From a virus, in IMG/VR virus record IMGVR_UViG_3300021964_000018, positions 32,001 through 96,000 of that record: a DNA stretch of 64,000 nt; one strand, written 5' to 3'. This document shows positions 44,124 to 60,591 of this stretch, piece by piece (positions within the stretch are counted from its first letter, which is position 1; each line of letters starts with the position of its first letter). Position numbers and translations under genes: made by a program. Under the pieces are notes generated by a model. It was given only the letters and a program-made list of their open reading frames with translations. It had not been told where the DNA came from and did not search any database.

Positions 44124-44339
44124 ATGAAATTAAATGATGAAGTAATCGCACACATTGCAAAACAATTACAACTGGCAATTTTGACTGGAACTGACATTGT
44201 TGATAACCTTCGAATGATTCGTTTAACTGCAGAAAATAATGAACTTTATTTGGATGCTGAATATTCAGAAATCGCTGAAGAAAACGAAAAAAGAATGCTT
44301 CAAGAAGCAGAAAAACTTGCATCACAGTTGGAAAATTAA
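44124..44339 (+). CDS. Hypothetical protein
   Basis: AGGAG RBS, 71 aa. Confidence 0.65.
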   Translation: MKLNDEVIAHIAKQLQLAILTGTDIVDNLRMIRLTAENNELYLDAEYSEIAEENEKRMLQEAEKLASQLEN

Positions 44340-44340
44340 T

Positions 44341-44724
44341 ATGAGTAATTGCAAACTTAAAGAAATGTTCGATTTGAGAGAGTCCTTTATTAAAAGGATG
44401 CAAAAAGAAAGACCGGGTTCATATCCAATACCTGTACCTTTAGAAAATCTTTCAGATAAAAAATCCCAGCAAGTTTGCAGAGATCTAGCTTTACGAGGTG
44501 TTGAAGAAATGTTTGAAGCACTTCAACACCTCAAAAACTGGAAACCTCACAAACTAACAGAAGATAAAGAATTCAACAAGGAAGAATTCTTAGAAGAAAT
44601 TGTGGATGCGTTCAATTATTTCATGGCTTTGTTAATTGTTGTAGATGTTGATGAAGAAAAACTATTTGAAGCATACCTTAAAAAAGATCAAAAAATTAGA
44701 AAAAGATTAGATGAAGGATACTAA
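44341..44724 (+). CDS. All-alpha NTP pyrophosphatase (dimeric dUTPase/dCTPase, MazG superfamily)
   Basis: VEEMFEALQHLKNWKPHK...FLEEIVDAFNYF...LFEAYLKKD. Confidence 0.8.
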   Translation: MSNCKLKEMFDLRESFIKRMQKERPGSYPIPVPLENLSDKKSQQVCRDLALRGVEEMFEALQHLKNWKPHKLTEDKEFNKEEFLEEIVDAFNYFMALLIVVDVDEEKLFEAYLKKDQKIRKRLDEGY

Positions 44725-45614
44725 TGAAACTTGAAACCCTATTCCAAATGCAAAAAGACTTTCAAGATAAACACGTTGGTTTAAAAGGTGATATTGAAGA
44801 AAGAACACAAAAGTTGGCATTATGCGCGCATTCTGAATTAAGCTCCATGATGGAAGCTGTTAATTATAAAATGCATCACAAGTATAGAGACATTCAGATG
44901 AATGCTGCCTCAGACAAAGTAATGTATGAAGCTGTTGATGTTGTGCGCTACATGATTGCTATCATGAATAACTGGCAGATAACACCAGAACAATTTGCAT
45001 TAGCTTATGATAAGAAAGACACTTATCTTCGAATGACTGCAGAAATTAATGAAAAGAAATGGGAGCAACAACCTGTTGTTATTGTTGACTTAGATGATGT
45101 GGTAGTAGATTTTAGGGTTTGTTTTGCCAATTGGCTTGAAGATAATTATGGTCTTAAAATAGACGTGGAATCTGAAGAATATTATTTTATTTCAGCATTG
45201 TCATCTATTGATGTTAATCCAGAAGCTGTATTTGAAAAATTTATGAACCAAGGTGGGTTTTCTCGACCAGACATTAATTCTGGTGTGTATCGCTATCTTT
45301 GGGATTTAAAAAATCAAGGTTTCTGGATTCAATATTTAACAGCAAGGCCTGGCGATAACCTTCGATGCGTTTATGATACGTATGATTGGATTGCAAAACA
45401 TAGCTTACCTTACGACGGTATTGATTTTTCAACAGAAAAATTTAGATGGTGTGCAAGATCTCGTTACTATAAACATATTAAATTTGCAATTGATGATTCA
45501 CCAAAGCATGCCTTAGAATATGCAAAGCATGGAATAGAATGTCATGTTCCTGTTAAATCATATAATAAACAAACAATCGGAATAAATAATATTAAACGGT
45601 ATAAAATATTTTAA
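44724..45614 (+). CDS. Fusion of a degenerate all-alpha NTP pyrophosphatase and a HAD 5'(3')-deoxyribonucleotidase
   Basis: N-half LFQMQ...HSEL....NYKMH...YEAVDVVRY; C-half DLDDVVVDF, LTAR, IDDSP. Confidence 0.75.
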   Translation: MKLETLFQMQKDFQDKHVGLKGDIEERTQKLALCAHSELSSMMEAVNYKMHHKYRDIQMNAASDKVMYEAVDVVRYMIAIMNNWQITPEQFALAYDKKDTYLRMTAEINEKKWEQQPVVIVDLDDVVVDFRVCFANWLEDNYGLKIDVESEEYYFISALSSIDVNPEAVFEKFMNQGGFSRPDINSGVYRYLWDLKNQGFWIQYLTARPGDNLRCVYDTYDWIAKHSLPYDGIDFSTEKFRWCARSRYYKHIKFAIDDSPKHALEYAKHGIECHVPVKSYNKQTIGINNIKRYKIF

Positions 45615-45929: not shown

Positions 45930-46916
45930 ATGCCACAAAATAAAAATCTTACACCTGTTAAACTCCCAATGGAACTTAAATTTGGTCAAGAACCAAAAAC
46001 AAAATTTTATAATAATCTTGAACATCTTAAAGTTGAATTAGTTGATGCGCCCACCAGGTCCCAAGCCCTTAATGTTGCATGGCAATATGTAAAAGCAACA
46101 TGGGCTGATCATCATGACGAAACAAATCCAGCAACTGCTTCATTACAAGAATTGTCTGCAAACCTTGAAGATGTTCTTAACTTTCGTGCATTGCCAACAC
46201 CAATGGAATGTTTAGGTTTTACATTTAAGCTGTCCGGACTTTCATTTCAAGAAGTTACTCACATTATTCGTCATCGAGCCGGCTCTTTTGCAGCACAATG
46301 TACAGGTGATCGCGATCTTCGTGATGATCCAGCCGTTATCCCTGAGGCCGTTGAAAACAGTCCAGAGTTTTTGCAACGATATCGAAAAATTGTTCGTGAT
46401 TCAAAGCAACTTTATGCTGACATGTGTGACTCAAAAGACGTCTCTATGATGGATGCTCGAATGATTCTTCCAAAATGTATGACATCTTTTTATCTAATGC
46501 GTCTTAACCTTAAAGACCTATTAGGTTTTATTGCACAGCGTCAAGATATGCAAATTCAACCTGCAGCAGATAATATTCTTGCAGCTTATATGGCACGTGA
46601 GCTTTTAAAAGTTTTACCAGAAGCGTCAACACGAATTAATTTTAGTAAACCTGACATGCATTACATTAAGACTTTCCGTGTACCAGATGGTAAAGGCGGT
46701 GAAACATCACGTGGTACAAATCTTTATTGGCCAGAACCTAAAAATGATAAGTTTGAATATCACCCAAATGATACAATTTATCAGTCACGTCGAGAAGATA
46801 TTAATGGAACAAATAACCCAGGAACAAAAACAAAATTTACACAACTTTGGGAACAAGCTTTACACGAAATAGCAGGTATACAAATAGCTTATGCACAATT
46901 TATGGGTAGAATTTGA
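45930..46916 (+). CDS. ThyX-like flavin-dependent thymidylate synthase homologue with altered active site
   Basis: TPME..FTF, IIRHRAGSFAAQCTGDR, DARMILP, NLKDLLGFIAQR...Q. Confidence 0.8.
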   Translation: MPQNKNLTPVKLPMELKFGQEPKTKFYNNLEHLKVELVDAPTRSQALNVAWQYVKATWADHHDETNPATASLQELSANLEDVLNFRALPTPMECLGFTFKLSGLSFQEVTHIIRHRAGSFAAQCTGDRDLRDDPAVIPEAVENSPEFLQRYRKIVRDSKQLYADMCDSKDVSMMDARMILPKCMTSFYLMRLNLKDLLGFIAQRQDMQIQPAADNILAAYMARELLKVLPEASTRINFSKPDMHYIKTFRVPDGKGGETSRGTNLYWPEPKNDKFEYHPNDTIYQSRREDINGTNNPGTKTKFTQLWEQALHEIAGIQIAYAQFMGRI

Positions 46917-46992
46917 TTTTTTATAGATAAATGCCTATTTAATTTCATAATTAATAATGTTTAAAAATATTTCATTAAGGAGAAATTTAATT

Positions 46993-47904
46993 ATGAAATT
47001 AAATAGGCATAGTTTAAGAATGTTAATAGAAAGTGTACTTCAAGAAGAAGTAGATGTTTCAAAATTCAAAAAAGGTGAATCCACAATAGTAGCGACAAAA
47101 GGTGCAGCTGCTGATAATAAAGCAGCTTTTGAAGTTTCTGATGTTGACACTATAAAGAAAAAACTAGGTATAAAAATATCAGGAAAATATTATGTATGGA
47201 AAGGAAGTCAAGCAGAAGCAGGTTATAAATTAGGTTCTGTTAGATATTCTTCAGGCGACCCTTATACTTACGAAGAATTATCAAATGGGTTTTACAGAGT
47301 AATGTCCGGACCAGATAGTAACGAAAAAAGAGATAGTGGAAAAAGAATAGGTACGTCTCCAATTGGTGCTAAGTTTAAACCTTCTTCTCCTCCAGACGTT
47401 GTTGTTGATCCTACAAATGTTCTTTCGAAGTTACGCGAAACTCCTGATGGAGATAAAAGATCAGGCAATTTCGATAAAGCTGTGAACATATTGGTGGCGT
47501 GTGCATCTGACAAAAAACAACTAGGTGACGTTATAAGTGAATTAGAAAGTCTAGCAAGTAGACCAATTAGAGGAAAAGATCTTCTCGCTCATCCTGCACA
47601 TTATGTTGCAAGATTGATGATGGGAGGTGTACAACAAGGAGGCGAAGTTTCAGGAACAGGCGCAGCTGCAAGTAATTCCAAAATTATCAATAAATATTTG
47701 TCATTACTGCAGAAGAAGCACGGTATGGGACGTGGTAACGTCGATATAAAATTTGACATGCGGATTAGCCAAGATCGCGCAGATAAATCTAATTTTGGAG
47801 ATTCAGTTAAGTCTGGTGCGAAAACTGGTGGAGGTCAAGCTGAAAAAATGGATGAATCTTTATCACGCGGATCTTTACTAAGAAGACGTTATAGAAGATA
47901 CTAG
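46993..47904 (+). CDS. Hypothetical protein, putative internal head protein
   Basis: AGGAGA RBS; N-term MKLNRHSLRMLIESVLQE; C-term MDESLSRGSLLRRRY. Confidence 0.6.
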   Translation: MKLNRHSLRMLIESVLQEEVDVSKFKKGESTIVATKGAAADNKAAFEVSDVDTIKKKLGIKISGKYYVWKGSQAEAGYKLGSVRYSSGDPYTYEELSNGFYRVMSGPDSNEKRDSGKRIGTSPIGAKFKPSSPPDVVVDPTNVLSKLRETPDGDKRSGNFDKAVNILVACASDKKQLGDVISELESLASRPIRGKDLLAHPAHYVARLMMGGVQQGGEVSGTGAAASNSKIINKYLSLLQKKHGMGRGNVDIKFDMRISQDRADKSNFGDSVKSGAKTGGGQAEKMDESLSRGSLLRRRYRRY

Positions 47905-47998: not shown

Positions 47999-48442
47999 AT
48001 GAATAAATGTTATATTGCCAGCGGTTGGTTTTCACCTGAATGGCTAGAAGAATTAGAAACAATTAAATCTGTACTTGATAGTCTAAATTTAAAATACTTT
48101 TCACCAAAAGATGAAAATCTTTGCGAGCCGGATTCTGACGTTGGTTTTCAAGATCAAGTCTTTAACGGCAATATTAAAGGGATGGAAGAGTGTGATTGGA
48201 TGATCTGTAATACTCGTAATAAAGATATGGGTAGTATTTTTGAAGCAGGTTATTTTCATAAGTTAGGAAAACCAATTGTTTACTTTTGCGCCGGTCTTCC
48301 TCCTGGTGCGCAATTTAATCTTATGCTAGCTGCATCTGGTAAGACAGTTTGTACATCAATTAAACAACTCAAAGGCTATCTTATCGATTGCCAGGCAACA
48401 GGTGAAATTATTACTCGTCGTTATGAAGGAGATATTGAGTAA
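47999..48442 (+). CDS. Nucleoside 2-deoxyribosyltransferase / (d)NMP N-glycosidase (NDT-DNPH1-MilB family)
   Basis: YIASGWFS, YFSP, DMGSIFEAGY (catalytic Glu), KPIV, FNLML. Confidence 0.85.
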   Translation: MNKCYIASGWFSPEWLEELETIKSVLDSLNLKYFSPKDENLCEPDSDVGFQDQVFNGNIKGMEECDWMICNTRNKDMGSIFEAGYFHKLGKPIVYFCAGLPPGAQFNLMLAASGKTVCTSIKQLKGYLIDCQATGEIITRRYEGDIE

Positions 48443-49437
48443 TGAATATTTTTATTACTGGTGAAAAAGGTTTAATTGCACAAAATATTATTAAAGAAGC
48501 AAAAGAAAACTTTCCTGATGTAAATATTATTACAGGAGCTGTTGATTATCTTAATATGCATCAAGAAGGTGAACCTTGTGTTTATAAAAATTCAATTGAT
48601 CAATGGAAATTCTTTTTTGATTTAAATCAAATTGATGTAATTATTCACAATGCAGCTGTTGTTAATACAGAAGTTGTTGGCATGAATCTTGAGCGCGCAA
48701 CACGAACCAACGACGAAGGTACATATAAGATTTGCATGGCAGCACAAAAATGTGACATTCCTGTTTGTTATATGGGAACGACTGTTATCTATGATGCATT
48801 TAAATATCAAAACGAGAAAATAACAGAAGAATCATCACGTGGACCACATACACTTTACGGCTGTCAAAAGCTAGCAGCAGAATATATTGTTAAGTCTCAT
48901 GCACCGAAATGGATGATTATTCGACCTCTATTTGCATATGGCGGAGAAGGTGATATGAATTCACTAATTGCAAAGTCAATTTATGCATGTCTTAACGGAA
49001 AGCAAGTTGATATGCGCCTAGATCCAACAAAATACAAAGATTATATGCACGTTTCAGATTATGCTAATGCAGTCTTAACAGGAATTACACAGCACCTTTG
49101 GAATGACGAATGGAACATCGCGGCAGAAACACCTCATGTAACAGAAAACATTATCAAAATGATTGAAAAGATTTGTGGTTTAGACATGTCAAATACAATC
49201 AATTGGAAATCTACTTCAGACTATACAGGTAATCATAGGTTGGATTCTAGTAAGTTTAGAAATGCTACCGGCTGGTCTCCTAAAGTTATACTAACCAAAG
49301 GAATTAGAATGTCTTATGAAACAATTCTGAATTCGGAAGGTTATAATCCATTAACACACCTTGAAGAAGCAGAAAAAAGAAACATCGACGTGGGAGAATA
49401 CTTTAATGAAGCAAGAATTGCAAGAAAGTCTATTTAA
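48442..49437 (+). CDS. NAD-dependent NDP-sugar epimerase/dehydratase (extended SDR)
   Basis: ITGEKGLIA, IHNAA, YGCQK (YxxxK), IIRP..AYG, DYMHVSD. Confidence 0.85.
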   Translation: MNIFITGEKGLIAQNIIKEAKENFPDVNIITGAVDYLNMHQEGEPCVYKNSIDQWKFFFDLNQIDVIIHNAAVVNTEVVGMNLERATRTNDEGTYKICMAAQKCDIPVCYMGTTVIYDAFKYQNEKITEESSRGPHTLYGCQKLAAEYIVKSHAPKWMIIRPLFAYGGEGDMNSLIAKSIYACLNGKQVDMRLDPTKYKDYMHVSDYANAVLTGITQHLWNDEWNIAAETPHVTENIIKMIEKICGLDMSNTINWKSTSDYTGNHRLDSSKFRNATGWSPKVILTKGIRMSYETILNSEGYNPLTHLEEAEKRNIDVGEYFNEARIARKSI

Positions 49438-49710: not shown

Positions 49711-50457
49711 ATGTCACATTCACAATATAAATGTCAAGTTCAAGGAAAAGAAAGTTATATTGATAATCAATTTGTTATCTTTTCTCAATCTTACTTAATG
49801 AATCAGGTTCATATCTACAATAAAGAAAAAGGTCACACAACAAAAAATCGAGTTAAATTATTAGAATTGGGATGTTATAACGGTCGTGTTATGCACTTTA
49901 TGACGCAACAAATGTTATTTGTTGATTATACAGGTGTTGATGTTACTCATCAGTATCTTGCACATTCACCGGTCGCAAATCGAAAAGACGTAACCTTGCT
50001 TTGCGAAGACGTAACAAAAGGATTGTCATTGGCTGACGGTTCTCAAGATATGATTATCAGCTCAGAAGTGTTAGAGCATATCAATCCAGAAGATTTACCA
50101 GGCGTAATGAGAACACTTTATAACAAGCTTAAAGTAGGTGGGCGATGTTGTGTTGCGTTTCCGATGAATACACGTGACACAATGTTTCACAATCTTGAAA
50201 AAGAACAAGGTTTAGGTCACGTTAATTTTCCTGTCTATGAAGACTTTATTGAACTTTGTGAAAACATCGGATTTACCTTACATCATTATGATAGTGGGTT
50301 TTCGCTTAAATCAAGTTTTAGAACACCTCGTTATGGAAAAGATCCGCTATATGACAAGTTAAGAGATCGACTAGGTTCACCTGCTGCTCGAGCTGTTTGG
50401 ATGACAATAACTGATGATCATACTGGTGGAGGATATTTTACTTTTGATAAGTTGTAA
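49711..50457 (+). CDS. Class I SAM-dependent methyltransferase
   Basis: LLELGCYNG, YTGVDV, DMIISSEVLEHI, LKVGG. Confidence 0.85.
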   Translation: MSHSQYKCQVQGKESYIDNQFVIFSQSYLMNQVHIYNKEKGHTTKNRVKLLELGCYNGRVMHFMTQQMLFVDYTGVDVTHQYLAHSPVANRKDVTLLCEDVTKGLSLADGSQDMIISSEVLEHINPEDLPGVMRTLYNKLKVGGRCCVAFPMNTRDTMFHNLEKEQGLGHVNFPVYEDFIELCENIGFTLHHYDSGFSLKSSFRTPRYGKDPLYDKLRDRLGSPAARAVWMTITDDHTGGGYFTFDKL

Positions 50458-50508
50458 TTATTGCGAATAATTAATTATTGATTTATACTTTGTTAAAAAG
50501 GTGTGCAA

Positions 50509-52314
50509 ATGATTATAAATGAAAAATTAATTAAAAAACTCATTAAGGAGTCTATTAACAAGTTAATAGTTGAAAAAGCTAAGTTTACAAAAGCAGAAAA
50601 TTTTTTAAAAGATACTGAAAATCATTATGAAATTTTTGAAAATATAAAATATTCCTATAATATTGTCATGTTAAAAGATTTTGAAAATGACCTAGAAGTA
50701 AAAGAAGAAGCAAAGAAAAATATAGAAAACGTCTTTGCTGCTTTTTTACACTCTAGCCCCAAAACAGAAAAAGGAAAGGTATGGTTTTTAGATAAGTCTA
50801 TTAACAGATACGTTACAGACTTAAGCAATATTCCAGAATTTGGCAGTAATCCTTTTTATGATAGTCCAATTTTACTTAAAAGAATAAAGGAAAAAAATAA
50901 TTTTTCCGACCAAGAAGCAAAGAAAAACCTACTAGATAGAATTAAACGTTTCACGAAAGATATATCTAGAGAATTAATAGAACTAGTAAAGAAATCAGTA
51001 ACACATGATTTGCAAAGAAAACTTAAGTCAAATTTTATGGAAAAAAATAAAGACATATTAGAAAGTTTAAACTTTGTTCATTATCCTTATGCGTTTAGAG
51101 AATATTCAGAAACAGACACAACAGGGATCGGCGCAGTCTTAGAAGTCCTAGGAAAGCCCTTGGAATTTTTAAAAGGAACTGTAGTTAATAGTCCTGACGA
51201 ATTAGCTGGGATTGGTTATCCTAAAGGGGAGGAATTAAGAGATTCAATTGGTATGGGTAGCGAGTTAGGAGGAAAAATCGCGTTTCCATATATTGGTTTT
51301 CTTATAACGGGAAAGATTACTTATTTTGATGAAAAAGATGCTCAATCATCAACTTATCGAAGTAGCTTTGTTGGCGGTCAAAGAGACAGCAGCGGTTTTG
51401 TAAGATACCCAAAAGACATTCAAGGTTCAATGTCCAACCAGATACCAGGCGCGTACAAGACAAAGGAGGAATTAGAAAATTATCTTTCTAATTTTGATAA
51501 AAGATTTGGCGCGTTAACAACAGCTGAAAGAAGCGAATCTGAGATAAAAACTGGTTTTAAAAAACATAATTATGGTGAAGCTTTTATTGACAATTGGACA
51601 GCAGTTGGTATGATTGCGCAATGGGATTTAATTGTTAAAAAGTTTAGAGAAAAGCTTTTAGCAACTATAACAGGTTTAGAATTAGATCCTCAAAAAGAAT
51701 TTAAGCAATACCTTTATAAAAATAAAGGTTATTCTCCTTTTAATGATATTCAATTGACACATAGCTTAAGAACAGCTAAAAAAAATCTAGATATCGTTGC
51801 CTTAGGCGAACCTAAAATAGAAGACTTGTCGGTAAATAAAAACCGATACAAGACGGCAAAAGATAATTTAAGTTTTGAATATGGTGGTGACTCAATTCCA
51901 TACTTATCGAAAAAACTAGGTATTCAAAAAGAAGCAGTACCTTCTTTTATTGAAGACTTTATAAAAAATATTGATCCTGTTTTAGAACAACTTAAAACAG
52001 GCGAAATATTATATAGTGAGTTAAATAATCCTAAAGTAGAAGAATTCATAGATAAATATTATGAAGGTGATATAGCTTCAGATTTGCAAAAACAACAACG
52101 CAAAATAAAAAACTTGATTAAAAAAACAGGCTCAGCATCAATAATTTCAACTTTAACAATCGGTCTAGAAAAGATTAATGATGATTTAAGCAAATTTGAA
52201 GATATTAAACTAAAATCATATGATAAAAATTTCAATGAATATGATGTTAAAATATTTACAAATAATATGAGGCAAATAATAGCAGAAGCAATTGCGCAAT
52301 TAAAAAAACGTTAA
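50509..52314 (+). CDS. Hypothetical protein, putative internal head protein
   Basis: N-term MIINEKLIKKLIKESINKLIVE; preceded by ATAATTA. Confidence 0.6.
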   Translation: MIINEKLIKKLIKESINKLIVEKAKFTKAENFLKDTENHYEIFENIKYSYNIVMLKDFENDLEVKEEAKKNIENVFAAFLHSSPKTEKGKVWFLDKSINRYVTDLSNIPEFGSNPFYDSPILLKRIKEKNNFSDQEAKKNLLDRIKRFTKDISRELIELVKKSVTHDLQRKLKSNFMEKNKDILESLNFVHYPYAFREYSETDTTGIGAVLEVLGKPLEFLKGTVVNSPDELAGIGYPKGEELRDSIGMGSELGGKIAFPYIGFLITGKITYFDEKDAQSSTYRSSFVGGQRDSSGFVRYPKDIQGSMSNQIPGAYKTKEELENYLSNFDKRFGALTTAERSESEIKTGFKKHNYGEAFIDNWTAVGMIAQWDLIVKKFREKLLATITGLELDPQKEFKQYLYKNKGYSPFNDIQLTHSLRTAKKNLDIVALGEPKIEDLSVNKNRYKTAKDNLSFEYGGDSIPYLSKKLGIQKEAVPSFIEDFIKNIDPVLEQLKTGEILYSELNNPKVEEFIDKYYEGDIASDLQKQQRKIKNLIKKTGSASIISTLTIGLEKINDDLSKFEDIKLKSYDKNFNEYDVKIFTNNMRQIIAEAIAQLKKR

Positions 52315-56003: not shown

Positions 56004-56900
56004 ATGGTTAAGTTTCCTATTGAAAAAATTATAATTGAAGGTCCAGATTTAGCTGGAAAAACAACATTGCTTAATAAAATGCATGATATATCAAAATTCC
56101 GCTGGAATATACAAGATCGTTCTGCATTATCAATGCTAATTTATGCAAAAATGTATAATCGAGATACGTTTCACTTAGTTGAAAATCTTAAAAAAGAACT
56201 GTTTAATCTTAACAATCAAATTGTTTTATTACTACCACCTTTTGAAGTTTTATCAAAAAGGTTTCAAAAACGTGGTGATCCAATACAAAATTTAATATCA
56301 TTGCGAAAGCTTCATAAGCTATTTTCAGAATTTGAAGAAGAATATGGATCTTTACCAAACGTAACAGTTGTTAAAAAAGAAATTAGTGATCATGATTATA
56401 AATCAATTGTAGGTCGTTATCTTGCAATGGAACAACATGCTACAATACATCAATTTCCTGCTATGTGTGTTAATGCTGCTAATACACAGGATAACAAAGA
56501 AGTCGTTGGCCTTAGGTTTACTTATTTTGATGATGGCCAATTCACAGATGTTATTCCAGAACTTATGGAGTATAAAGGGGAAAAAGAATATTATCTTAAA
56601 ATTAGAGAAAAGTTGCATTATAAAATGATGCAAAATCATACTGACAGCCAAGATGTTTCTTCTAGAAGAATAATTTATAGCGATGATAGTTGTATTTCTT
56701 TGGCACATTTTTTAATACGTGAACAAATGTTTGATGCTAAGTTTTTTCTGCGATCATCAAATGTAAAAGATACTTTGAAATATGATATTAATTTTATTCA
56801 TTTTCTAACTAGTCATGTATATCAATCTTATCATTGCAATCAGCCTGTGAAAATAGAACTGACGTTAAACTCGGCACATATTTGTGATAGAATAGATTAG
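56004..56900 (+). CDS. Fusion of a dNMP (thymidylate-type) kinase and a minimal thymidylate-synthase-fold domain
   Basis: N-term IIIEGPDLAGKTT, IQDRS..S..IY, R..KRGD; C-term SRRII, C230, LRSSNV, YD261I, SAH292I. Confidence 0.75.
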   Translation: MVKFPIEKIIIEGPDLAGKTTLLNKMHDISKFRWNIQDRSALSMLIYAKMYNRDTFHLVENLKKELFNLNNQIVLLLPPFEVLSKRFQKRGDPIQNLISLRKLHKLFSEFEEEYGSLPNVTVVKKEISDHDYKSIVGRYLAMEQHATIHQFPAMCVNAANTQDNKEVVGLRFTYFDDGQFTDVIPELMEYKGEKEYYLKIREKLHYKMMQNHTDSQDVSSRRIIYSDDSCISLAHFLIREQMFDAKFFLRSSNVKDTLKYDINFIHFLTSHVYQSYHCNQPVKIELTLNSAHICDRID

Positions 56901-56902
56901 TT

Positions 56903-57061
56903 ATGAAAAATGATAAGCTTTGGTTATTAATTGATGGCGTACTAAAAAAACTGCATCATGCAAAATTTTGGGCTACTTCTATTGATCCTCACAAAGAAGA
57001 TATAATAAAAGCAATAGAAGCTTTAGAATCTGCAAGAAAGAAAATTGAGGAAGAAAAATGA
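56903..57061 (+). CDS. Small hypothetical protein (52 aa), not in ORF track
   Basis: MKNDKLWLLIDG...KKIEEEK*; fills the gap, with an ATGA overlap with dUTPase. Confidence 0.55.
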   Translation: MKNDKLWLLIDGVLKKLHHAKFWATSIDPHKEDIIKAIEALESARKKIEEEK

Positions 57062-57468
57062 AAATTAATATTAAAAAACTGCATCCAAATGCAGTGATCC
57101 CTGCATATGCAAAACAAGGTGATGCAGGTATGGATTTAACAGCAATCGGAATAAAAGAAACCGGTTCTCACATCACATATCATACAGGTTTGGCAATAGA
57201 AATCCCAAGAGGTTATGTGGGTTTATTGTTTCCTAGAAGCTCAATCTATAAAACAGATCAGACACTAACAAATTCAGTAGGCGTTATTGATAGCGGGTAT
57301 CGAGGTGAAATTATGATGAAATTTACTCGAGGAATTAATCATTATTGTATTGGTGATAGAATTGGTCAAATTATGATTTTACCTTATCCGCAAATTGAAT
57401 TTGAAGAAGTTGATCAACTTTCAACTTCAGAAAGAGGGGCTAATGGCTATGGAAGCACAGGAGCCTAA
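57058..57468 (+). CDS. dut: Trimeric dUTPase
   Basis: DAGMDL, PRSS, GVIDSGYRGEI, DRIGQ, RGANGYGSTG. Confidence 0.95.
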   Translation: MKINIKKLHPNAVIPAYAKQGDAGMDLTAIGIKETGSHITYHTGLAIEIPRGYVGLLFPRSSIYKTDQTLTNSVGVIDSGYRGEIMMKFTRGINHYCIGDRIGQIMILPYPQIEFEEVDQLSTSERGANGYGSTGA

Positions 57469-57682
57469 TCTAAATTCAGAAGCATATGAATATATTATTT
57501 ATGAGAATAATAAACTAATAGTTTTTCCTTCACCTTCTGGTATGCACGCAGGAATGAAAAGACATTATTATTTTAAAAAAGTTTTTAATGAATATCATTT
57601 GACAATTGTAAATAGGAAATCTTGGGAAAAATTAAAAAATCAATATAAAGTAAAAGTTTTAAAAATTAAGGAGAAAGAATGA
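57443..57682 (+). CDS. Hypothetical protein
   Basis: Overlaps both neighbours in operon-like fashion; start uncertain. Confidence 0.5.
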   Translation: MAMEAQEPNLNSEAYEYIIYENNKLIVFPSPSGMHAGMKRHYYFKKVFNEYHLTIVNRKSWEKLKNQYKVKVLKIKEKE

Positions 57683-58710
57683 AAAAAGCACTCGTAACAG
57701 GTGGCTGCGGATTTATCGGTAGTAATCTTACAAAAGAATTAATAAAACAAGGTTGGCAAGTCGATATTGTTGATGACATGTCTAATGGTCATTTAGAGTT
57801 GTTAGGCGGTTTAAAATTTAAAACGCTTCCAAATGCATCTTTTGTTTATCATTTTATGAATCAGATGAAAGGAAAAACACAAAGGGCTAAGAATACTGTG
57901 CTTGTAATTCAAGATGATTTTGCTGCACCAGCGCTTCTTGATTATATTGAAACAAATGCTTACGATGTAATATTTCACCAAGCAGCAGTTCCGAGAGTAA
58001 GTTATTCAGTTGAGTTTCCTTATGAAACTACAATTAATAACATTGCAAAAACTGTATCACTTTTCGATGCTGCTAAAGGTCATGTTAAAAGAATTGTTAA
58101 TGCATCATCTTCATCAGTTTATGGCGGGGCTGATAAATTACCTACTAAGGAAAGTGAAAATCAAAAAAGCCCAAAGTCTCCTTATGCATGGCAAAAAAGT
58201 GCGATTGAAGATTATTCAAAAATCTGTGCCGATTTATATGATTTAGACATTGTAAATTTAAGATATTTTAATGTTTTCGGCCCAGGTCAATATGGTAATA
58301 GTCCTTATTCAACGGCGGTGTCTGCATGGTGTCATGCAATTAAAAATGGATTAGAATGTAGATCTGACGGTGATGGAGAGCAAACCCGCGATATGTGTTA
58401 TATAGACAATATTGTATCAGCTAATATTTTAGCAGCATATGCAACCGGAAAATTTAAAGGTTTGGCATATAATGTTGCATGTGGAGACAGGGTCTCAAAC
58501 AATGAAATTTTAAATTATCTTAAAAACCAGTTTGGAGATCGAGTTAAAGTAAAAAATGCTCCAGAAAGACCAGGTGATGTAAAACATACACAGGCAGATA
58601 TCAGTTGTGCAACACAAGATTTTGGTTATAAACCTCTTGTTCAGTTTTGGGAAGGTTTGGAAAGAACAATCGAGTGGTGGGAAATAAAACCTGACGAATC
58701 AAATAAATAG
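57679..58710 (+). CDS. NDP-sugar 4-epimerase (GalE/WbpP-like extended SDR)
   Basis: VTGGCGFIGS, FHQAA, ASSSSVYG, PKSPYAWQK, LRYFNVFGP, GDGEQTRD, RPGDVKH. Confidence 0.9.
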   Translation: MKKALVTGGCGFIGSNLTKELIKQGWQVDIVDDMSNGHLELLGGLKFKTLPNASFVYHFMNQMKGKTQRAKNTVLVIQDDFAAPALLDYIETNAYDVIFHQAAVPRVSYSVEFPYETTINNIAKTVSLFDAAKGHVKRIVNASSSSVYGGADKLPTKESENQKSPKSPYAWQKSAIEDYSKICADLYDLDIVNLRYFNVFGPGQYGNSPYSTAVSAWCHAIKNGLECRSDGDGEQTRDMCYIDNIVSANILAAYATGKFKGLAYNVACGDRVSNNEILNYLKNQFGDRVKVKNAPERPGDVKHTQADISCATQDFGYKPLVQFWEGLERTIEWWEIKPDESNK

Positions 58711-59579: not shown

Positions 59580-60188
59580 ATGTTAACGGCAATGGGCGAC
59601 GTTATGCGAAAAGCACACGAAAAAGGATGGATTACAACAAGAGATGGTAATGTATCTGTTAAAATGACAGGAAAAGATATCCTATATATAACACCTTCTG
59701 GTTGGCGAAAGACAATATTGCATCCTGAACATATTATTAAAGTTAAATTTACCCCTGCAGGTTTAAACGTTCCAGAAGGAACAACACCTTCTGGGGAATT
59801 GCATATGCATTCAAAGCTTCAACGGTTTGCAAAATATACGAGATCGGTTGTTCACCTTCACCCCACAAATATTATTGCAGCAATGTATGCCGGCTGGAAT
59901 TTGCAATCGTTGGCAGCAGAATTTCCTGAGGTATCACGTTATACAAGGGTTGGACCAACTGTTCCAGTTCTTCCTGTCACGTCGAATATACTTGCTGAAG
60001 AAACATTTGAGGCTTTTACTGATTTTGAAGGTACCGGATCTAATAAACTTAAGTTTGATATTGTTGGTCAAAAAAATCATGGAGTTTGTGCAGTAGGCGC
60101 AAATCCATGGGATGCTTATGAACATATTGAAAGGTTAGAACACATTTGTGAAATAGCCTTAAAAAGTGGAAGAAGACCTAATGAATAG
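59580..60188 (+). CDS. Class II aldolase/adducin family (FucA/AraD/MtnB-like)
   Basis: DGNVS, ITPSG, PSGELHMH, VVHLHP, NHGV. Confidence 0.88.
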   Translation: MLTAMGDVMRKAHEKGWITTRDGNVSVKMTGKDILYITPSGWRKTILHPEHIIKVKFTPAGLNVPEGTTPSGELHMHSKLQRFAKYTRSVVHLHPTNIIAAMYAGWNLQSLAAEFPEVSRYTRVGPTVPVLPVTSNILAEETFEAFTDFEGTGSNKLKFDIVGQKNHGVCAVGANPWDAYEHIERLEHICEIALKSGRRPNE

Positions 60189-60591
60189 ACCAGAATGGGA
60201 TGATATATGGATGGGTTTTGCTCAAAGTATTGCTAAGAGATCTTGTGATTCAAAATATCAAGTTGGTGCCGTCGTTGTAAATTCAGAAAACACACAAGTT
60301 CTTTCAATAGGATATAATGGTGATCAAAAAGGTGGGTCAAATCAAAGGGACTCTACTGAAACCGGTCAATCAGGATTTATTCATGCAGAAATCAATGCAT
60401 TAATTAAGATGGACTATAATAACCCATGTAAGAAAAAAATGTATTTGACTCTTTCGCCTTGTGAAGTCTGTGCAAAAGCAATCGTCAATGCAGGAATAAC
60501 AGCAGTCGTTTATTCTAAAGAATATGAGCACGGAAAAAAAGGAATATCTATTTTAAATGATGCAGGAATAGTGGTAAGAAACATTAAATGA
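60181..60591 (+). CDS. dCMP deaminase
   Basis: RPEWD, VGAVVV, GYNG, HAEINAL, PCEVCAK. Confidence 0.92.
   Translation: MNRPEWDDIWMGFAQSIAKRSCDSKYQVGAVVVNSENTQVLSIGYNGDQKGGSNQRDSTETGQSGFIHAEINALIKMDYNNPCKKKMYLTLSPCEVCAKAIVNAGITAVVYSKEYEHGKKGISILNDAGIVVRNIK

What the first reader, a model, noticed from the sequence alone, without database searches (positions are those of the whole stretch)
45930..46916. ThyX homologue with a rewired active site
Seen: the motif reads RHRAGSFAAQCTGDR, against T. maritima ThyX RHRIASYNELSGRY as I recall it. That gives E86>A, S88>C, R90>G and Y91>D. LPTPMEC replaces HETPFEH, so the folate-stacking His53 becomes Leu. The FAD/substrate elements RHR, ARxxLP and the Arg174 equivalent remain, and there is a C-terminal extension. 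Inference: a flavoenzyme acting on a non-dUMP nucleotide or with a non-folate co-substrate, possibly supplying a redox step for the modified base. If so, no canonical dTMP synthase is present in this window.
Basis: partly seen in the sequence, partly recalled or inferred. Interest (0 to 1): 0.78.

Follow-up and report, generated by a model that had tools for sequence, protein, structure and literature searches.

The report
Rewired ThyX paralogue in phage nucleotide module
This marine jumbo-phage gene encodes a flavoprotein with the thymidylate-synthase ThyX fold whose substrate- and folate-binding residues have been swapped for a different conserved set, and it probably helps make a modified DNA base (most likely a cytosine derivative) rather than ordinary thymidylate.

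Summary
ORF 45930-46916 (+) is an intact, strongly constrained 328-aa Thy1/ThyX-fold protein. It has RHRx7C-T-G-D-R in place of RHRx7S-x-R-Y, and Leu in place of the folate-stacking His. The flavin and pyrimidine arginines are kept.

This is the signature of a large, almost purely viral, uncharacterised clade, not a one-off. The only cultured carrier found is Geobacillus phage GR1.

Two new results:
- Related, more complete jumbo-phage genomes carry a canonical ThyX as well as this paralogue. The window's own contig stops just short of the syntenic position. So the variant is unlikely to be the lineage's main dTMP synthase.
- Across many unrelated phage lineages the variant sits in one conserved module next to the DNA polymerase. 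The module holds a MazG-like dNTP pyrophosphatase (often fused to a 5'-nucleotidase), an Ndt-like enzyme, a dN(MP) kinase and a truncated ThyA-fold domain. That domain carries the dCMP-type Asp and lies at 56004-56900 in this window.

A published screen (MetaGPA) found these same Pfam families enriched in cytosine-modified viral DNA.

Best reading: a pre-replicative pyrimidine C5-modifying flavoenzyme, probably acting on dCMP. The chemistry is unproven. Other first-stage readers flagged the same variant on other genomes.

The parts
45930..46916 (+). Variant ThyX-fold flavoprotein gene, 328 aa (the finding)
   Evidence: It is an intact ORF. Pfam Thy1 matches at E=3.8e-18. The AF2 model has pLDDT 95.8 and pTM 0.92. 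Foldseek finds only ThyX and PolB chains, at E 4e-11 to 7e-9. dN/dS is 0.07-0.10.
46071..46622 (+). Thy1 (ThyX) core domain, residues 48-231
   Evidence: The Pfam match spans these residues. The family profile matches M. tuberculosis ThyX at E=8.6e-20.
46191..46211 (+). LPTPMEC segment, residues 88-94. Leu88 stands at the position of the folate-stacking His53, and Glu93 corresponds to Glu58.
   Evidence: The alignment to T. maritima chains gives the mapping. Across 80 family members, L88 is Leu in 71 and never His, and E93 is Glu in 72.
46269..46322 (+). RHR...QCTGDRDLR substrate loop, residues 114-131. R114/H115/R116 are kept. A122 stands for E86, C124 for S88, G126 for R90 and D127 for Y91. 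D129 and R131 are family-specific.
   Evidence: The mapping rests. Conservation among 80 members: C124 58, G126 57, D127 60, D129 55, R131 55.
46458..46541 (+). Retained arginines: R177 (= Tm R147, in ARMILP) and R204 (= Tm R174)
   Evidence: Each is conserved in 79 of 80 family members.
46623..46913 (+). C-terminal extension specific to this clade, residues 232-328, ending in a long helix (302-325)
   Evidence: It is conserved from the marine clade to GR1. pLDDT is mostly above 90. It lies outside the Pfam Thy1 match.
44341..44724 (+). MazG-like all-alpha NTP pyrophosphatase (the ORF listing ORF starts at 44239; the likely real start is near 44341)
   Evidence: PHROG nucleotide pyrophosphohydrolase matches at E=8e-15 over residues 40-161. 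MazG-like genes lie within 5 kb of variant ThyX genes in 16 of 23 lineages.
44724..45614 (+). Fusion of a MazG/dUTPase_2-like NTP pyrophosphatase with an NT5C-type (HAD) 5'-deoxynucleotidase, directly upstream of the finding
   Evidence: Pfam NT5C matches at E=1.5e-5 and dUTPase_2 at E=1.1e-3. The gene has the same position in the 265-kb Tara contig L008.
47999..48442 (+). Ndt-like (nucleoside 2-deoxyribosyltransferase family) gene
   Evidence: Pfam PF05014 matches at E=3.9e-14. The nearest solved relative is the NDT 6evs at E=5e-7, and the catalytic Glu column is kept. The gene is directly adjacent to the variant ThyX in L008. Ndt-like genes lie within 3 kb in 67 of 98 variant loci, but occur in only 4 of 95 canonical-ThyX-only loci.
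56004..56900 (+). dN(MP) kinase (residues 1 to about 145) fused to a truncated ThyA-fold domain (residues 146-298, nt 56439-56897). The ThyA-fold domain has invariant R221, C230, R250, S251, D261 (at the ThyA Asn177 position) and H292.
   Evidence: Pfam kinase hits are. The alignments are A5 and A6. The AF2 model has pLDDT 92.5. VIA-align gives 9iqc (flavin-dependent dCMP monooxygenase) Z 11.5, ThyA Z 10.6 and MilA Z 9.7. The profile matches T4 dCMP hydroxymethylase and 9iqc at E=9e-4. Stand-alone homologues lie 0-3 bp downstream of variant ThyX genes in other lineages.
57058..57468 (+). Trimeric-type dUTPase
   Evidence: Pfam PF00692 matches at E=6e-19.
60166..60591 (+). dCMP/cytidine deaminase
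   Evidence: Pfam PF00383 matches at E=4e-21. Deaminase genes also lie beside variant ThyX genes in L099, L085 and L098.

Best explanation
The gene encodes a neofunctionalised ThyX-fold flavoprotein, not the phage's ordinary thymidylate synthase.

What the protein keeps and loses:
- It keeps the flavin and pyrimidine scaffold: R78, R80, E58, R147 and R174 equivalents.
- It has lost the residues that in ThyX recognise uracil O4 and the phosphate (R90, R74, Q75), bind the sugar (E86), assist methylene transfer (S88, Y91) and stack folate (H53).
- In their place stand Leu-Pro and a conserved loop, Cys-Thr-Gly-Asp-x-Asp-x-Arg.

Proposed role (inferred):
- It works inside a conserved pre-replicative module. 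MazG-like enzymes hydrolyse a canonical dNTP.
- The ThyX-like protein, together with the truncated ThyA-fold domain that carries the dCMP-type Asp and a catalytic-position Cys, installs a group on C5 of a pyrimidine deoxynucleotide. The most likely substrate is dCMP.
- A dedicated kinase then re-phosphorylates the product for the phage polymerase.
- The logic parallels T4 gp56/gp42/gp1, but is built on the ThyX fold.

Shown: the fold, the residue replacements, paralogy with a canonical ThyX, and the conserved gene neighbourhood.

Inferred: the substrate (cytosine rather than uracil) and the chemistry. The chemistry could be one-carbon transfer via a flavin N5 adduct, with Cys124 as a C6 nucleophile or methylene carrier. 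It could instead be flavin-dependent hydroxylation.
For: Fold and flavin scaffold.
- Pfam Thy1 matches at E=3.8e-18.
- The AF2 model has pLDDT 95.8 and matches only ThyX and PolB chains.
- R114, R116, R177, R204 and E93 are conserved in 72-80 of 80 family members.

Catalytic and substrate residues replaced by another conserved set.
- PMC11940539 calls S88 and Y91 strictly conserved and critical, and R90 conserved.
- In PolB, the R90 equivalent hydrogen-bonds pyrimidine O4 and the phosphate (PMC5003785).

Paralogy.
- 12 of 23 related jumbo-phage contigs carry a canonical ThyX as well. This includes 5 of the 6 that are at least 61% complete.
- The canonical copy has HTSTLEH and RHRTWSYNEISRRY and scores 115-174 bits.
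- The two paralogues are barely alignable: BLASTP E=0.77, hhalign probability 96.7%.
- The own contig ends just short of the syntenic canonical gene.

Conserved module across phages with PolIII-alpha, PolA and PolB replication genes.
- Among 23 lineages, a MazG-like gene is nearby in 16, an Ndt-like gene in 11 and a kinase or mini-ThyA gene in 12.
- Mini-ThyA ORFs lie 0-3 bp downstream of the variant ThyX in at least 9 loci, GR1 included.

The mini-ThyA partner.
- It has the ThyA fold.
- Its invariant residues correspond to C146, R166, S167 and H207, with Asp at the N177 position.
- Its best sequence and structure matches are dCMP-specific enzymes.

Independent experimental association.
- In MetaGPA, the families Thy1, PRA-PH (MazG-like), dUTPase_2, Nuc_deoxyri_tr2, NT5C, Thymidylate_kin and dCMP deaminase are all enriched in contigs whose cytosines resist APOBEC3A.
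- Thy1 counts are 49 against 275, p=1.8e-40 (PMC8670742, supplementary table 2).

Selection and phylogeny.
- Purifying selection is strong, with dN/dS 0.07-0.10.
- The query sits in a fully non-canonical clade of 45 rows with local support 100.
Against: - No biochemical data exist for any member.
- Complete small phages (G006, G007, G009, G028, GR1) carry only the variant and no other thymidylate synthase. That is also what a divergent dTMP synthase would look like.
- A dimeric-dUTPase-like enzyme, a ThyX and a thymidylate-kinase-like enzyme together also form a sensible dTTP pathway.
- The pyrimidine O2 arginine (R174) is retained. As I recall, the T. maritima S88C mutant is active, and 3g4c, which has Cys at that position, is the best PDB sequence hit.
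- Cys124 is not universal in the wider family (58 of 80), so it may not be essential.
- The MetaGPA enrichment is at Pfam level. It does not separate variant from canonical Thy1, and it may partly reflect hitch-hiking with other phage genes.
- The cytosine assignment rests on the partner domain's Asp and on the R90>G / Y91>D logic, not on any direct test.
Confidence: 0.55

Rival explanations
1. It is a very divergent but genuine flavin-dependent thymidylate synthase. It would make dTMP from dUMP, and other residues of the loop (R128, R131, D127) would take over the roles of R90, Y91 and S88.
For: - It has the Thy1 fold and the retained arginines R78, R80, R147 and R174.
- It is the only TS-like gene in several complete phage genomes.
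- Its neighbours (dUTPase_2-like, thymidylate-kinase-like, dCMP deaminase) fit dTTP supply for AT-rich genomes of 30-37% G+C.
- PDB entry 3g4c, with Cys at position 88, is the top sequence hit.
Against: - It coexists with a canonical ThyX in most of the more complete genomes of its own lineage.
- H53, E86, S88, R90 and Y91, described as conserved or critical for ThyX, are all replaced, and by a different conserved motif.
- It is tightly linked to a ThyA-fold domain with the dCMP-type Asp and to Ndt-like and 5'-nucleotidase genes. Ndt-like genes are nearly absent beside canonical ThyX, at 4 of 95 loci.
Confidence: 0.2
2. It no longer modifies a nucleotide itself. Instead it serves as the NAD(P)H-dependent flavin reductase or flavin carrier of a two-component system. 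The truncated ThyA-fold domain would be the nucleotide-activating and oxygenating component, making for example 5-hydroxy-dCMP as the flavin-using ThyA homologues of RB69, DLP3 and HY126 do.
For: - The losses are complementary. The ThyX-like protein lacks nucleotide and folate ligands but keeps flavin ligands. The mini-ThyA domain keeps nucleotide ligands and the Cys but lacks the cofactor-binding N-terminal part.
- The best structural match of the mini-ThyA domain is 9iqc, 'monooxygenase dependent on riboflavin with dCMP and FAD', at Z 11.5.
- The window's domain has Asn at the ThyA D169 position, which PMC13326640 reports as diagnostic of 5hodCMP synthases.
- A nitroreductase-type flavin reductase gene directly precedes the GR1 homologue.
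- The two genes are adjacent or overlapping in many lineages.
Against: - A mere reductase would not be expected to conserve a specific Cys-x-Gly-Asp-x-Asp-x-Arg loop, or the pyrimidine-binding R174 and R147 equivalents.
- The D169 position toggles between Asp and Asn among close relatives.
- The Z scores for 9iqc and ordinary ThyA differ by less than 1, so they are tied.
Confidence: 0.15
3. It acts on a nucleoside or a free base rather than a 5'-monophosphate, within a salvage-like route. MazG-NT5C would take a dNTP down to a deoxynucleoside. The Ndt-like enzyme would exchange the base. The deoxynucleoside-kinase-like domain would re-phosphorylate the product.
For: - Three of the four phosphate ligands of ThyX-type enzymes (R74, S88, R90) are replaced.
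- A 5'-nucleotidase (NT5C or HD/YfbR type) and an Ndt-like gene with its catalytic Glu accompany the variant in many lineages.
- The kinase domain also matches deoxynucleoside kinases.
Against: - R147, a phosphate ligand, is kept in 79 of 80 members.
- No ThyX-type enzyme is known to use a nucleoside or free base.
- Ndt-like genes are missing from several variant lineages.
Confidence: 0.07

Closest known systems
Flavin-dependent thymidylate synthase ThyX (Pfam Thy1 PF02511; T. maritima TM0449, M. tuberculosis ThyX, PBCV-1 A674R)
   Same: - Same fold: Foldseek E about 1e-10 and target-normalised TM-score 0.66-0.79.
- RHR motif present.
- Glu58, Arg147 and Arg174 equivalents present.
   Different: - The RHRx7S-x-R-Y signature reads RHRx7C-T-G-D.
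- The His53, Glu86, Arg74 and Gln75 equivalents are replaced.
- There is an extra conserved C-terminal region of about 95 residues.
- It coexists with a canonical ThyX in related genomes.
- It scores only 55-85 bits on the Pfam model, against 115-174 for the canonical paralogue.
PolB, the ThyX-homologous UMP/dUMP C5-methylase of polyoxin biosynthesis (PDB 4p5a/4p5b; PMC5003785)
   Same: - It is the only characterised ThyX-fold enzyme recruited to a task other than dTMP supply.
- The structural match is close: rmsd 3.1 Å and target-normalised TM-score 0.74.
   Different: - PolB keeps Glu94, Ser96, Arg98 and Tyr99 (= E86, S88, R90, Y91) and still methylates uracil nucleotides with folate.
- The phage protein has none of these four residues.
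ThyA-family pyrimidine-modifying enzymes of phages: T4 gp42 dCMP hydroxymethylase, and the RB69 gp48 / DLP3 gp80 / HY126 5-hydroxy-dCMP synthases (PMC13326640; PDB 1b49, 9iqc)
   Same: - Same pathway logic: a TS paralogue beside a true TS, a dNTP pyrophosphatase, a dedicated dNMP kinase and a dCMP deaminase.
- The module's mini-ThyA domain is a homologue of these enzymes and shares the N177D change.
   Different: - These enzymes have the ThyA fold, which is unrelated to ThyX.
- No ThyX-fold counterpart turned up in the paper searches run here.
- Here the ThyA-fold part is truncated to about 150 residues and is always paired with the ThyX-like protein.
TrmFO, a folate/FAD-dependent tRNA U54 methyltransferase (from my own knowledge of Hamdane et al.)
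   Same: It is a flavin-dependent C5 methylation that uses cysteines, one as a C6 nucleophile and one forming a flavin-N5-CH2-S-Cys adduct. This is a precedent for a role of Cys124, which stands where ThyX Ser88 contacts the flavin N5 carbinolamine.
   Different: - The fold is unrelated and the substrate is RNA.
- The resemblance is mechanistic only and is recalled, not tested here.

Membership tests
ThyX / Thy1 superfamily (PF02511) | Thy1 domain detectable by sequence, and the ThyX fold | tested here: met
   The Pfam match is E=3.8e-18 at 66.4 bits against a cut-off of 24.8. The AF2 model matches only ThyX and PolB chains.
Functional ThyX (flavin-dependent dTMP synthase, EC 2.1.1.148) | ThyX signature RHRx7S, with Ser88 | tested here: not met
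   The motif reads RHRx7C, with Cys124. The register is supported by the profile alignment to M. tuberculosis ThyX.
Functional ThyX (flavin-dependent dTMP synthase, EC 2.1.1.148) | Arg90 and Tyr91 after the Ser (S-x-R-Y), which bind uracil O4 and phosphate and act in catalysis | tested here: not met
   These positions are Gly126 and Asp127. Across 80 family members, Arg occurs at the first position in only 2, and Tyr is not among the common residues at the second.
Functional ThyX (flavin-dependent dTMP synthase, EC 2.1.1.148) | Folate-stacking His53 (H-x-[ST]-P-x-E-H) | tested here: not met
   The position is Leu88, which is Leu in 71 of 80 family members and never His.
Functional ThyX (flavin-dependent dTMP synthase, EC 2.1.1.148) | Flavin and nucleotide arginines Arg78, Arg80, Arg147 and Arg174, plus Glu58 | tested here: met
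   R114 is conserved in 80 of 80 members, R116 in 75, R177 in 79, R204 in 79 and E93 in 72.
Functional ThyX (flavin-dependent dTMP synthase, EC 2.1.1.148) | dUMP to dTMP activity, or complementation of thyA | not testable with these tools
   This needs a bench assay.
PolB-type UMP/dUMP methylase | Substrate-recognition peptide with Glu94, Ser96, Arg98 and Tyr99, plus the Loop 1 and Loop 2 tyrosines | tested here: not met
   The four substrate-recognition residues are A122, C124, G126 and D127 in this protein. The loop tyrosines were not examined.
ThyA-fold dCMP-modifying enzymes (for the partner domain at 56439-56897, not for the finding itself) | ThyA fold with the catalytic Cys146, Arg166, Ser167 and His207, and Asp in place of Asn177 | tested here: met
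   C230, R250, S251, H292 and D261 are invariant in A6. VIA-align gives Z 9.7-11.5 to 9iqc, ThyA and MilA. A stand-alone homologue matches Pfam PF00303 at 25.9 bits against a cut-off of 24.3. The profile matches T4 gp42 and 9iqc at E=9e-4. The N-terminal, cofactor-binding third of ThyA is absent.

The most novel reading that the evidence does not exclude
The ThyX-like flavoprotein and the truncated ThyA-fold domain together form a previously unknown two-part enzyme. The ThyA remnant would bind and activate dCMP through its cysteine. The ThyX remnant would deliver the flavin-borne group, either a methylene or an oxygen. The result would be a modified deoxycytidylate that replaces dC in the DNA of abundant marine jumbo phages and of many smaller phages. 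This would be the first DNA-hypermodification pathway founded on the ThyX fold, and it would explain the unexplained Thy1 enrichment in the MetaGPA screen.
Probability: 0.3. Interest if true: 0.9.

Novelty: new variant of a known kind. Interest (0 to 1): 0.8.

Why it matters
Phage DNA base modifications defeat restriction enzymes and CRISPR. They also supply enzymes for epigenetic sequencing and for synthetic nucleic acids. All known pre-replicative pyrimidine modifications start from ThyA-fold enzymes. The unrelated ThyX fold has been credited only with thymidylate (and, in PolB, 5-methyl-UMP) synthesis.

A large, conserved, almost purely viral ThyX clade with a rebuilt active site would open a second enzymatic route to modified bases. 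This clade is abundant in marine metagenomes. It sits beside a canonical ThyX and is wired to a MazG / Ndt / kinase / mini-ThyA module.

It would also affect annotation. These genes are currently labelled 'thymidylate synthase ThyX', so nucleotide metabolism is probably being misread in many viral genomes.

A cultured carrier exists, Geobacillus phage GR1, so the question can be tested directly.

Tried and rejected
- **Megablast.** A search of 12 kb around the gene against 50,697 phage records found no match.
- **The search for related loci.** The broad alignment A2 failed for lack of a conserved stretch. The single proteins P0219 and P0145 found only themselves or nothing. Narrower alignments (A1, A3, A4) were used instead.
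- **Complex prediction.** The ThyX-like protein with the mini-ThyA domain (residues 146-298 of the kinase fusion) gave no verdict, with a score of 0.00. It counts neither for nor against binding.
- **The look-up of sequencing runs.** So I could not look for this phage in the selected versus control libraries of the MetaGPA study.
- **The 603-aa ORF at 50503-52314.** It is conserved downstream of the Ndt-like gene in the jumbo-phage clade. Pfam, PHROGs, a PDB sequence search and the ESM Atlas gave nothing usable.
- **The N-terminal half of the 551-aa fusion P0140.** It gave only a sub-threshold GT2 hit (E=1.6e-4, 22.1 bits against a cut-off of 23.3) and no PDB match. It is treated as a weak hint of a link to glycosylation.
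- **A gapped register placing S88 on Thr125 and G89 on Gly126.** One pairwise alignment suggested it. I rejected it because the profile alignment and intermediate sequences (..SQQC....SQES..) keep the ungapped register.
- **The absence of a canonical TS from the 141-kb contig.** I did not take it as meaningful, because the contig ends at the syntenic position of the canonical thyX.
- **The 315-aa gene between the ThyX-like and Ndt-like genes (46957-47904).** I did not count it as part of the module, because it is absent from L008 and most relatives.
- **Literature.** Searches found no paper describing a ThyX-fold enzyme for cytosine or for hypermodified bases. The library is incomplete, so this does not prove that none exists.
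Full report
**Setting**

The window is bases 32001-96000 of a 141-kb IMG/VR viral contig that CheckV rates as about 54% complete. It is AT-rich, at 27-38% G+C, and nearly all genes lie on the + strand. This is a marine jumbo-phage type genome. Close relatives occur on Tara and other marine contigs of up to 284 kb.

**The observation**

ORF 45930-46916 (+) encodes 328 aa.
- It matches Pfam Thy1 at E=3.8e-18 over residues 48-231, and PHROG 'thymidylate synthase'.
- The recalled T. maritima strings are what the PDB chains show.
- Single-sequence similarity to solved ThyX proteins is marginal, at E 0.08-0.9. The best hit is 3g4c, a T. maritima chain that itself has Cys at position 88.
- A profile of 80 family members (A2) hits M. 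tuberculosis ThyX at E=8.6e-20. It aligns the loop without gaps: C124 on Ser105 (Tm S88), G126 on Arg107 (R90) and D127 on Tyr108 (Y91).
- The remaining mapping is H53>L88, R74>T110, Q75>H111 and E86>A122.
- R78/H79/R80 (R114/H115/R116), E58 (E93), R147 (R177) and R174 (R204) are kept.
- An AF2 model built on A2 is very confident, with pLDDT 95.8 and pTM 0.92. In the PDB it matches only ThyX and PolB chains, at E 4e-11 to 7e-9 and target-normalised TM-score 0.66-0.79.
- The C-terminal region of about 95 residues lies outside the Thy1 match. It is conserved and confidently modelled.
- The gene is under strong purifying selection. dN/dS is 0.07-0.10 against relatives whose synonymous sites are near saturation.

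**What the substitutions mean in known ThyX enzymes**

- PMC11940539 describes Ser88 and Tyr91 as strictly conserved and critical. [quoted passage not shown] Arg90 is conserved and contacts Tyr91.
- The Ser88 equivalent binds the phosphate, and the Glu86 equivalent binds the ribose O3'.
- The Arg174 equivalent binds O2 (PMC5003785).
- So the phage protein keeps the O2 and flavin side of the site. It has lost the O4 donor, much of the phosphate clamp, the residues that assist methylene transfer, and the folate-stacking His.

**A family, not an accident**

- More than 1000 clusters at 90% identity match the protein, most of them marine.
- A library of representatives at 50% identity holds 488 clusters at E<=1e-3.
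- The only cultured carrier found is Geobacillus phage GR1. Its homologue is full length at 46-48% identity and has the identical AQCTGDR motif.
- In the wider family the signature is Leu-Pro...Glu at the His53 region, and [Cys, less often Ser/Gly/Thr]-x-[Gly/Arg]-Asp-x-Asp-x-Arg after the RxR motif.
- Conservation among 80 diverse members: L88 71, C124 58, G126 57, D127 60, D129 55, R131 55. The scaffold arginines score 75-80.
- Canonical S-x-R-Y sequences appear only among the weakest hits.
- On a FastTree tree the canonical sequences cluster together, needing 2 label changes with 1 not excluded. The query lies in an all-non-canonical clade of 45 rows with local support 100.
- ESM Atlas clusters around the protein are 86-92% viral.

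**Key result 1: it is a paralogue of a canonical ThyX**

- No ThyA (PF00303) and only this one Thy1 gene are found in the 141-kb contig.
- In related large contigs, Thy1 occurs twice. One copy is the variant, at 55-75 bits. The other is canonical, at 115-174 bits, with HTSTLEH, RHRTWSYNEISRRY and QARGVLP.
- In total, 12 of 23 variant-bearing contigs have both copies. Among the six that are at least 61% complete, five do, including the 284-kb contig rated 100% complete.
- In some lineages the two genes lie only 4-7 kb apart.
- The two paralogues are barely alignable. BLASTP gives E=0.77 and hhalign gives 96.7% probability.
- The window's own contig is collinear with relative G005 up to its last 135 bases. 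G005 has its canonical thyX about 130 bp beyond the last aligned position. The missing canonical gene is therefore an assembly edge effect.
- By contrast, smaller complete phages carry only the variant: GR1, a GR1-like 84.6-kb genome with terminal repeats, and three PolA siphophage genomes with terminal repeats.

**Key result 2: a conserved module**

I called ORFs in 229 fetched loci and followed families with jackhmmer. The variant genes fall into 23 lineages at 60% identity.

Neighbours within 5 kb on the same strand:

| Neighbour family | Lineages (of 23) |
|---|---|
| MazG-like NTP pyrophosphatase, often fused to a larger protein (here to an NT5C 5'-nucleotidase) | 16 |
| Ndt-like | 11 |
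| Kinase or 'kin298' family | 12 |

- The typical gene order is [Ndt][MazG(-fusion)][ThyX-like][about 150-190 aa][kinase(-fusion)][DNA polymerase].
- This order occurs in phages with PolIII-alpha, PolA or PolB replication genes.
- Ndt-like genes lie within 3 kb of 67 of 98 variant genes, at a median distance of 14.5 bp. Only 4 of 95 loci that hold a canonical ThyX alone have one.
- These counts are inflated by relatedness. The per-lineage counts in the table above are the safer figures.
- In the 265-kb Tara contig the Ndt-like gene abuts the ThyX-like gene. In this window a 315-aa gene has been inserted between them.

**The kinase and mini-ThyA partner**

The 298-aa product of 56004-56900 is a dN(MP) kinase followed by a C-terminal domain of about 150 residues.
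- The kinase part matches Pfam Thymidylate_kin and dNK. Its closest solved relative is SPbeta YorR, at Z 13.6.
- Alignment shows the C-terminal motifs SRR, C-I-S-x-x-H, R-S-S-N-V...D and S-A-H. R221, C230, R250, S251, D261 and H292 are invariant.
- The AF2 model has pLDDT 92.5.
- Residues 146-298 match ThyA-fold proteins. The matches are 9iqc ('monooxygenase dependent on riboflavin with dCMP and FAD') at Z 11.5, ThyA at Z 10.6 and 9.9, and the CMP hydroxymethylase MilA at Z 9.7. These scores are effectively tied.
- By profile, the best TS-family hits are T4 dCMP hydroxymethylase and 9iqc/9iqu at E=9e-4, ahead of dUMP-specific ThyA at 0.01-0.16.
- Stand-alone versions of the domain (150-181 aa) lie 0-3 bp downstream of the variant ThyX in GR1, L088, L089, L105, L107, L109, L110, L111 and L112, and 445 bp away in L106.
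- The L112 version reaches Pfam's own ThyA cut-off, at 25.9 against 24.3 bits.
- The invariant Asp stands at the ThyA Asn177 position. Published work ties an Asp there to dCMP preference (quoted in PMC13326640).
- The D169 position is Asn in this window. PMC13326640 reports Asn there as diagnostic for 5-hydroxy-dCMP synthases. However, the position toggles between Asp and Asn among close relatives.
It also answers the proposed co-occurrence test positively.

**Independent experimental association**

The MetaGPA study selected viral DNA whose cytosines resist APOBEC3A deamination. Its supplementary table 2 lists families enriched in the selected contigs:

| Pfam family | Selected contigs | Unselected contigs | p |
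|---|---|---|---|
| Thy1 | 49 | 275 | 1.8e-40 |
| PRA-PH (MazG-like) | 50 | 179 | 1.3e-49 |
| dUTPase_2 | 11 | 23 | 3.8e-14 |
| Nuc_deoxyri_tr2 | 12 | 39 | 1.9e-13 |
| NT5C | 12 | 72 | 9.8e-11 |
| Thymidylate_kin | 14 | 191 | 5.0e-08 |

- dCMP deaminase, DNA_pol_A and the DNA ligase domains seen in the PolA-type variant loci are also enriched.
- Thy1 is not discussed in that paper's main text.
- The association is at Pfam level and does not separate variant from canonical Thy1.
- Still, the set of enriched families coincides with this module.

**Interpretation**

The evidence best fits a ThyX-fold flavoprotein recruited to pre-replicative synthesis of a modified pyrimidine deoxynucleotide. The supporting points are the rebuilt and conserved active-site loop, paralogy with a true ThyX, the conserved module, the dCMP-type partner domain and the MetaGPA association.

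The logic would parallel T4: dCTPase gp56, dCMP hydroxymethylase gp42, kinase gp1, plus a true TS and a dCMP deaminase.

Cytosine is the favoured base for three reasons, all inferential:
- The uracil-O4 donor Arg90 is lost, and an acidic residue appears next to it.
- A Cys appears at the position nearest the base and the flavin N5. A C6 nucleophile is what cytosine C5 chemistry normally requires.
- The partner domain carries the dCMP-type Asp.

The chemistry is open.
- One possibility is one-carbon transfer through a flavin N5 adduct, with TrmFO offering a precedent for cysteine participation (from my own knowledge).
- The other is flavin-dependent hydroxylation, together with or on behalf of the mini-ThyA domain, by analogy with the flavin-using ThyA homologues of RB69, DLP3 and HY126.

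The complementary losses in the two proteins make a two-component enzyme attractive. A structure-prediction test of the pair gave no verdict.

The main rival is a highly divergent but genuine dTMP synthase. It is kept at about 0.2 because several complete small phages have no other TS, and because the dUTPase-like and kinase neighbours would also suit dTTP synthesis.

**Verdict**

- No characterised member of the clade exists, and no description of it was found in the searchable literature.
- The same variant was flagged by first-stage readers on several other genomes of this scan. None of those notes had been followed up.

Noticed in passing
window 56004-56900: This gene encodes a dN(MP) kinase fused to a truncated ThyA-fold domain of about 150 residues. 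The domain has invariant residues matching ThyA Cys146, Arg166, Ser167 and His207, and an Asp at the Asn177 position. Its best structural match is 9iqc, a flavin-dependent dCMP monooxygenase. Stand-alone copies directly follow variant ThyX genes in many other phages.
   Followed up: yes
L090-L093 (G001, G005, G002, G003); G005:C1:171449-172078: Related jumbo-phage genomes carry a canonical ThyX (HTSTLEH, RHRTWSYNEISRRY) in addition to the variant. The window's own contig ends about 130 bp before the syntenic position.
   Followed up: yes
window 46957-47904: A 315-aa gene of no known family lies between the ThyX-like and Ndt-like genes, which are adjacent in the Tara contig L008. It begins with the MK..R..L..LIE-type N-terminal leader that other first-stage notes report on many proteins of this genome.
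   Followed up: partly
L102:10704-11780, L005:10896-11780, L103:4564-5544, L104:11130-12014, L109:11554-12549: In the PolA siphophages that carry variant ThyX genes, the neighbouring kinase is fused to a different C-terminal domain. That domain gives a weak uracil-DNA-glycosylase-superfamily hit (PF03167, E=0.026 in L102).
   Followed up: no
P0140 (L098:7726-9381) and P0151: Two fused forms of the variant ThyX were seen. One is a 551-aa protein with an N-terminal half that gives a sub-threshold glycosyltransferase family 2 hit. The other is a 515-aa protein that carries an HNH / His-Me endonuclease region.
   Followed up: partly
L001 (Geobacillus phage GR1) 11286-13424 and 23306-24538: In GR1 a nitroreductase-type NAD(P)H flavin reductase gene directly precedes the variant ThyX, and the mini-ThyA gene overlaps its stop codon. 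A glycosyltransferase, an HD phosphohydrolase, an amidoligase and a gamma-glutamylcyclotransferase are also encoded nearby.
   Followed up: no
L131-L148 (for example L135:806-1864): This is a separate sub-clade of variant ThyX proteins, 340-350 aa long, with the loop ..MQHGGRDNDWR. The Arg90 position is kept but Ser88 is Gly and Tyr91 is Asp. A MazG-like fusion gene lies next to it, but no Ndt-like gene was detected.
   Followed up: partly
window 50503-52314: A 603-aa ORF is conserved downstream of the Ndt-like gene in the jumbo-phage clade. It has no match in Pfam, PHROGs, PDB sequences or the ESM Atlas.
   Followed up: partly
window 48442-49437, 49711-50457, 57679-58710, 59580-60188: Two NAD-dependent sugar epimerase/dehydratase genes, a SAM methyltransferase and a class II aldolase/epimerase-family gene are interspersed with the nucleotide genes. 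They could make an activated sugar for a base or a surface modification. No glycosyltransferase was found among the ORFs scanned with Pfam between about 39.7 and 62.2 kb.
   Followed up: no
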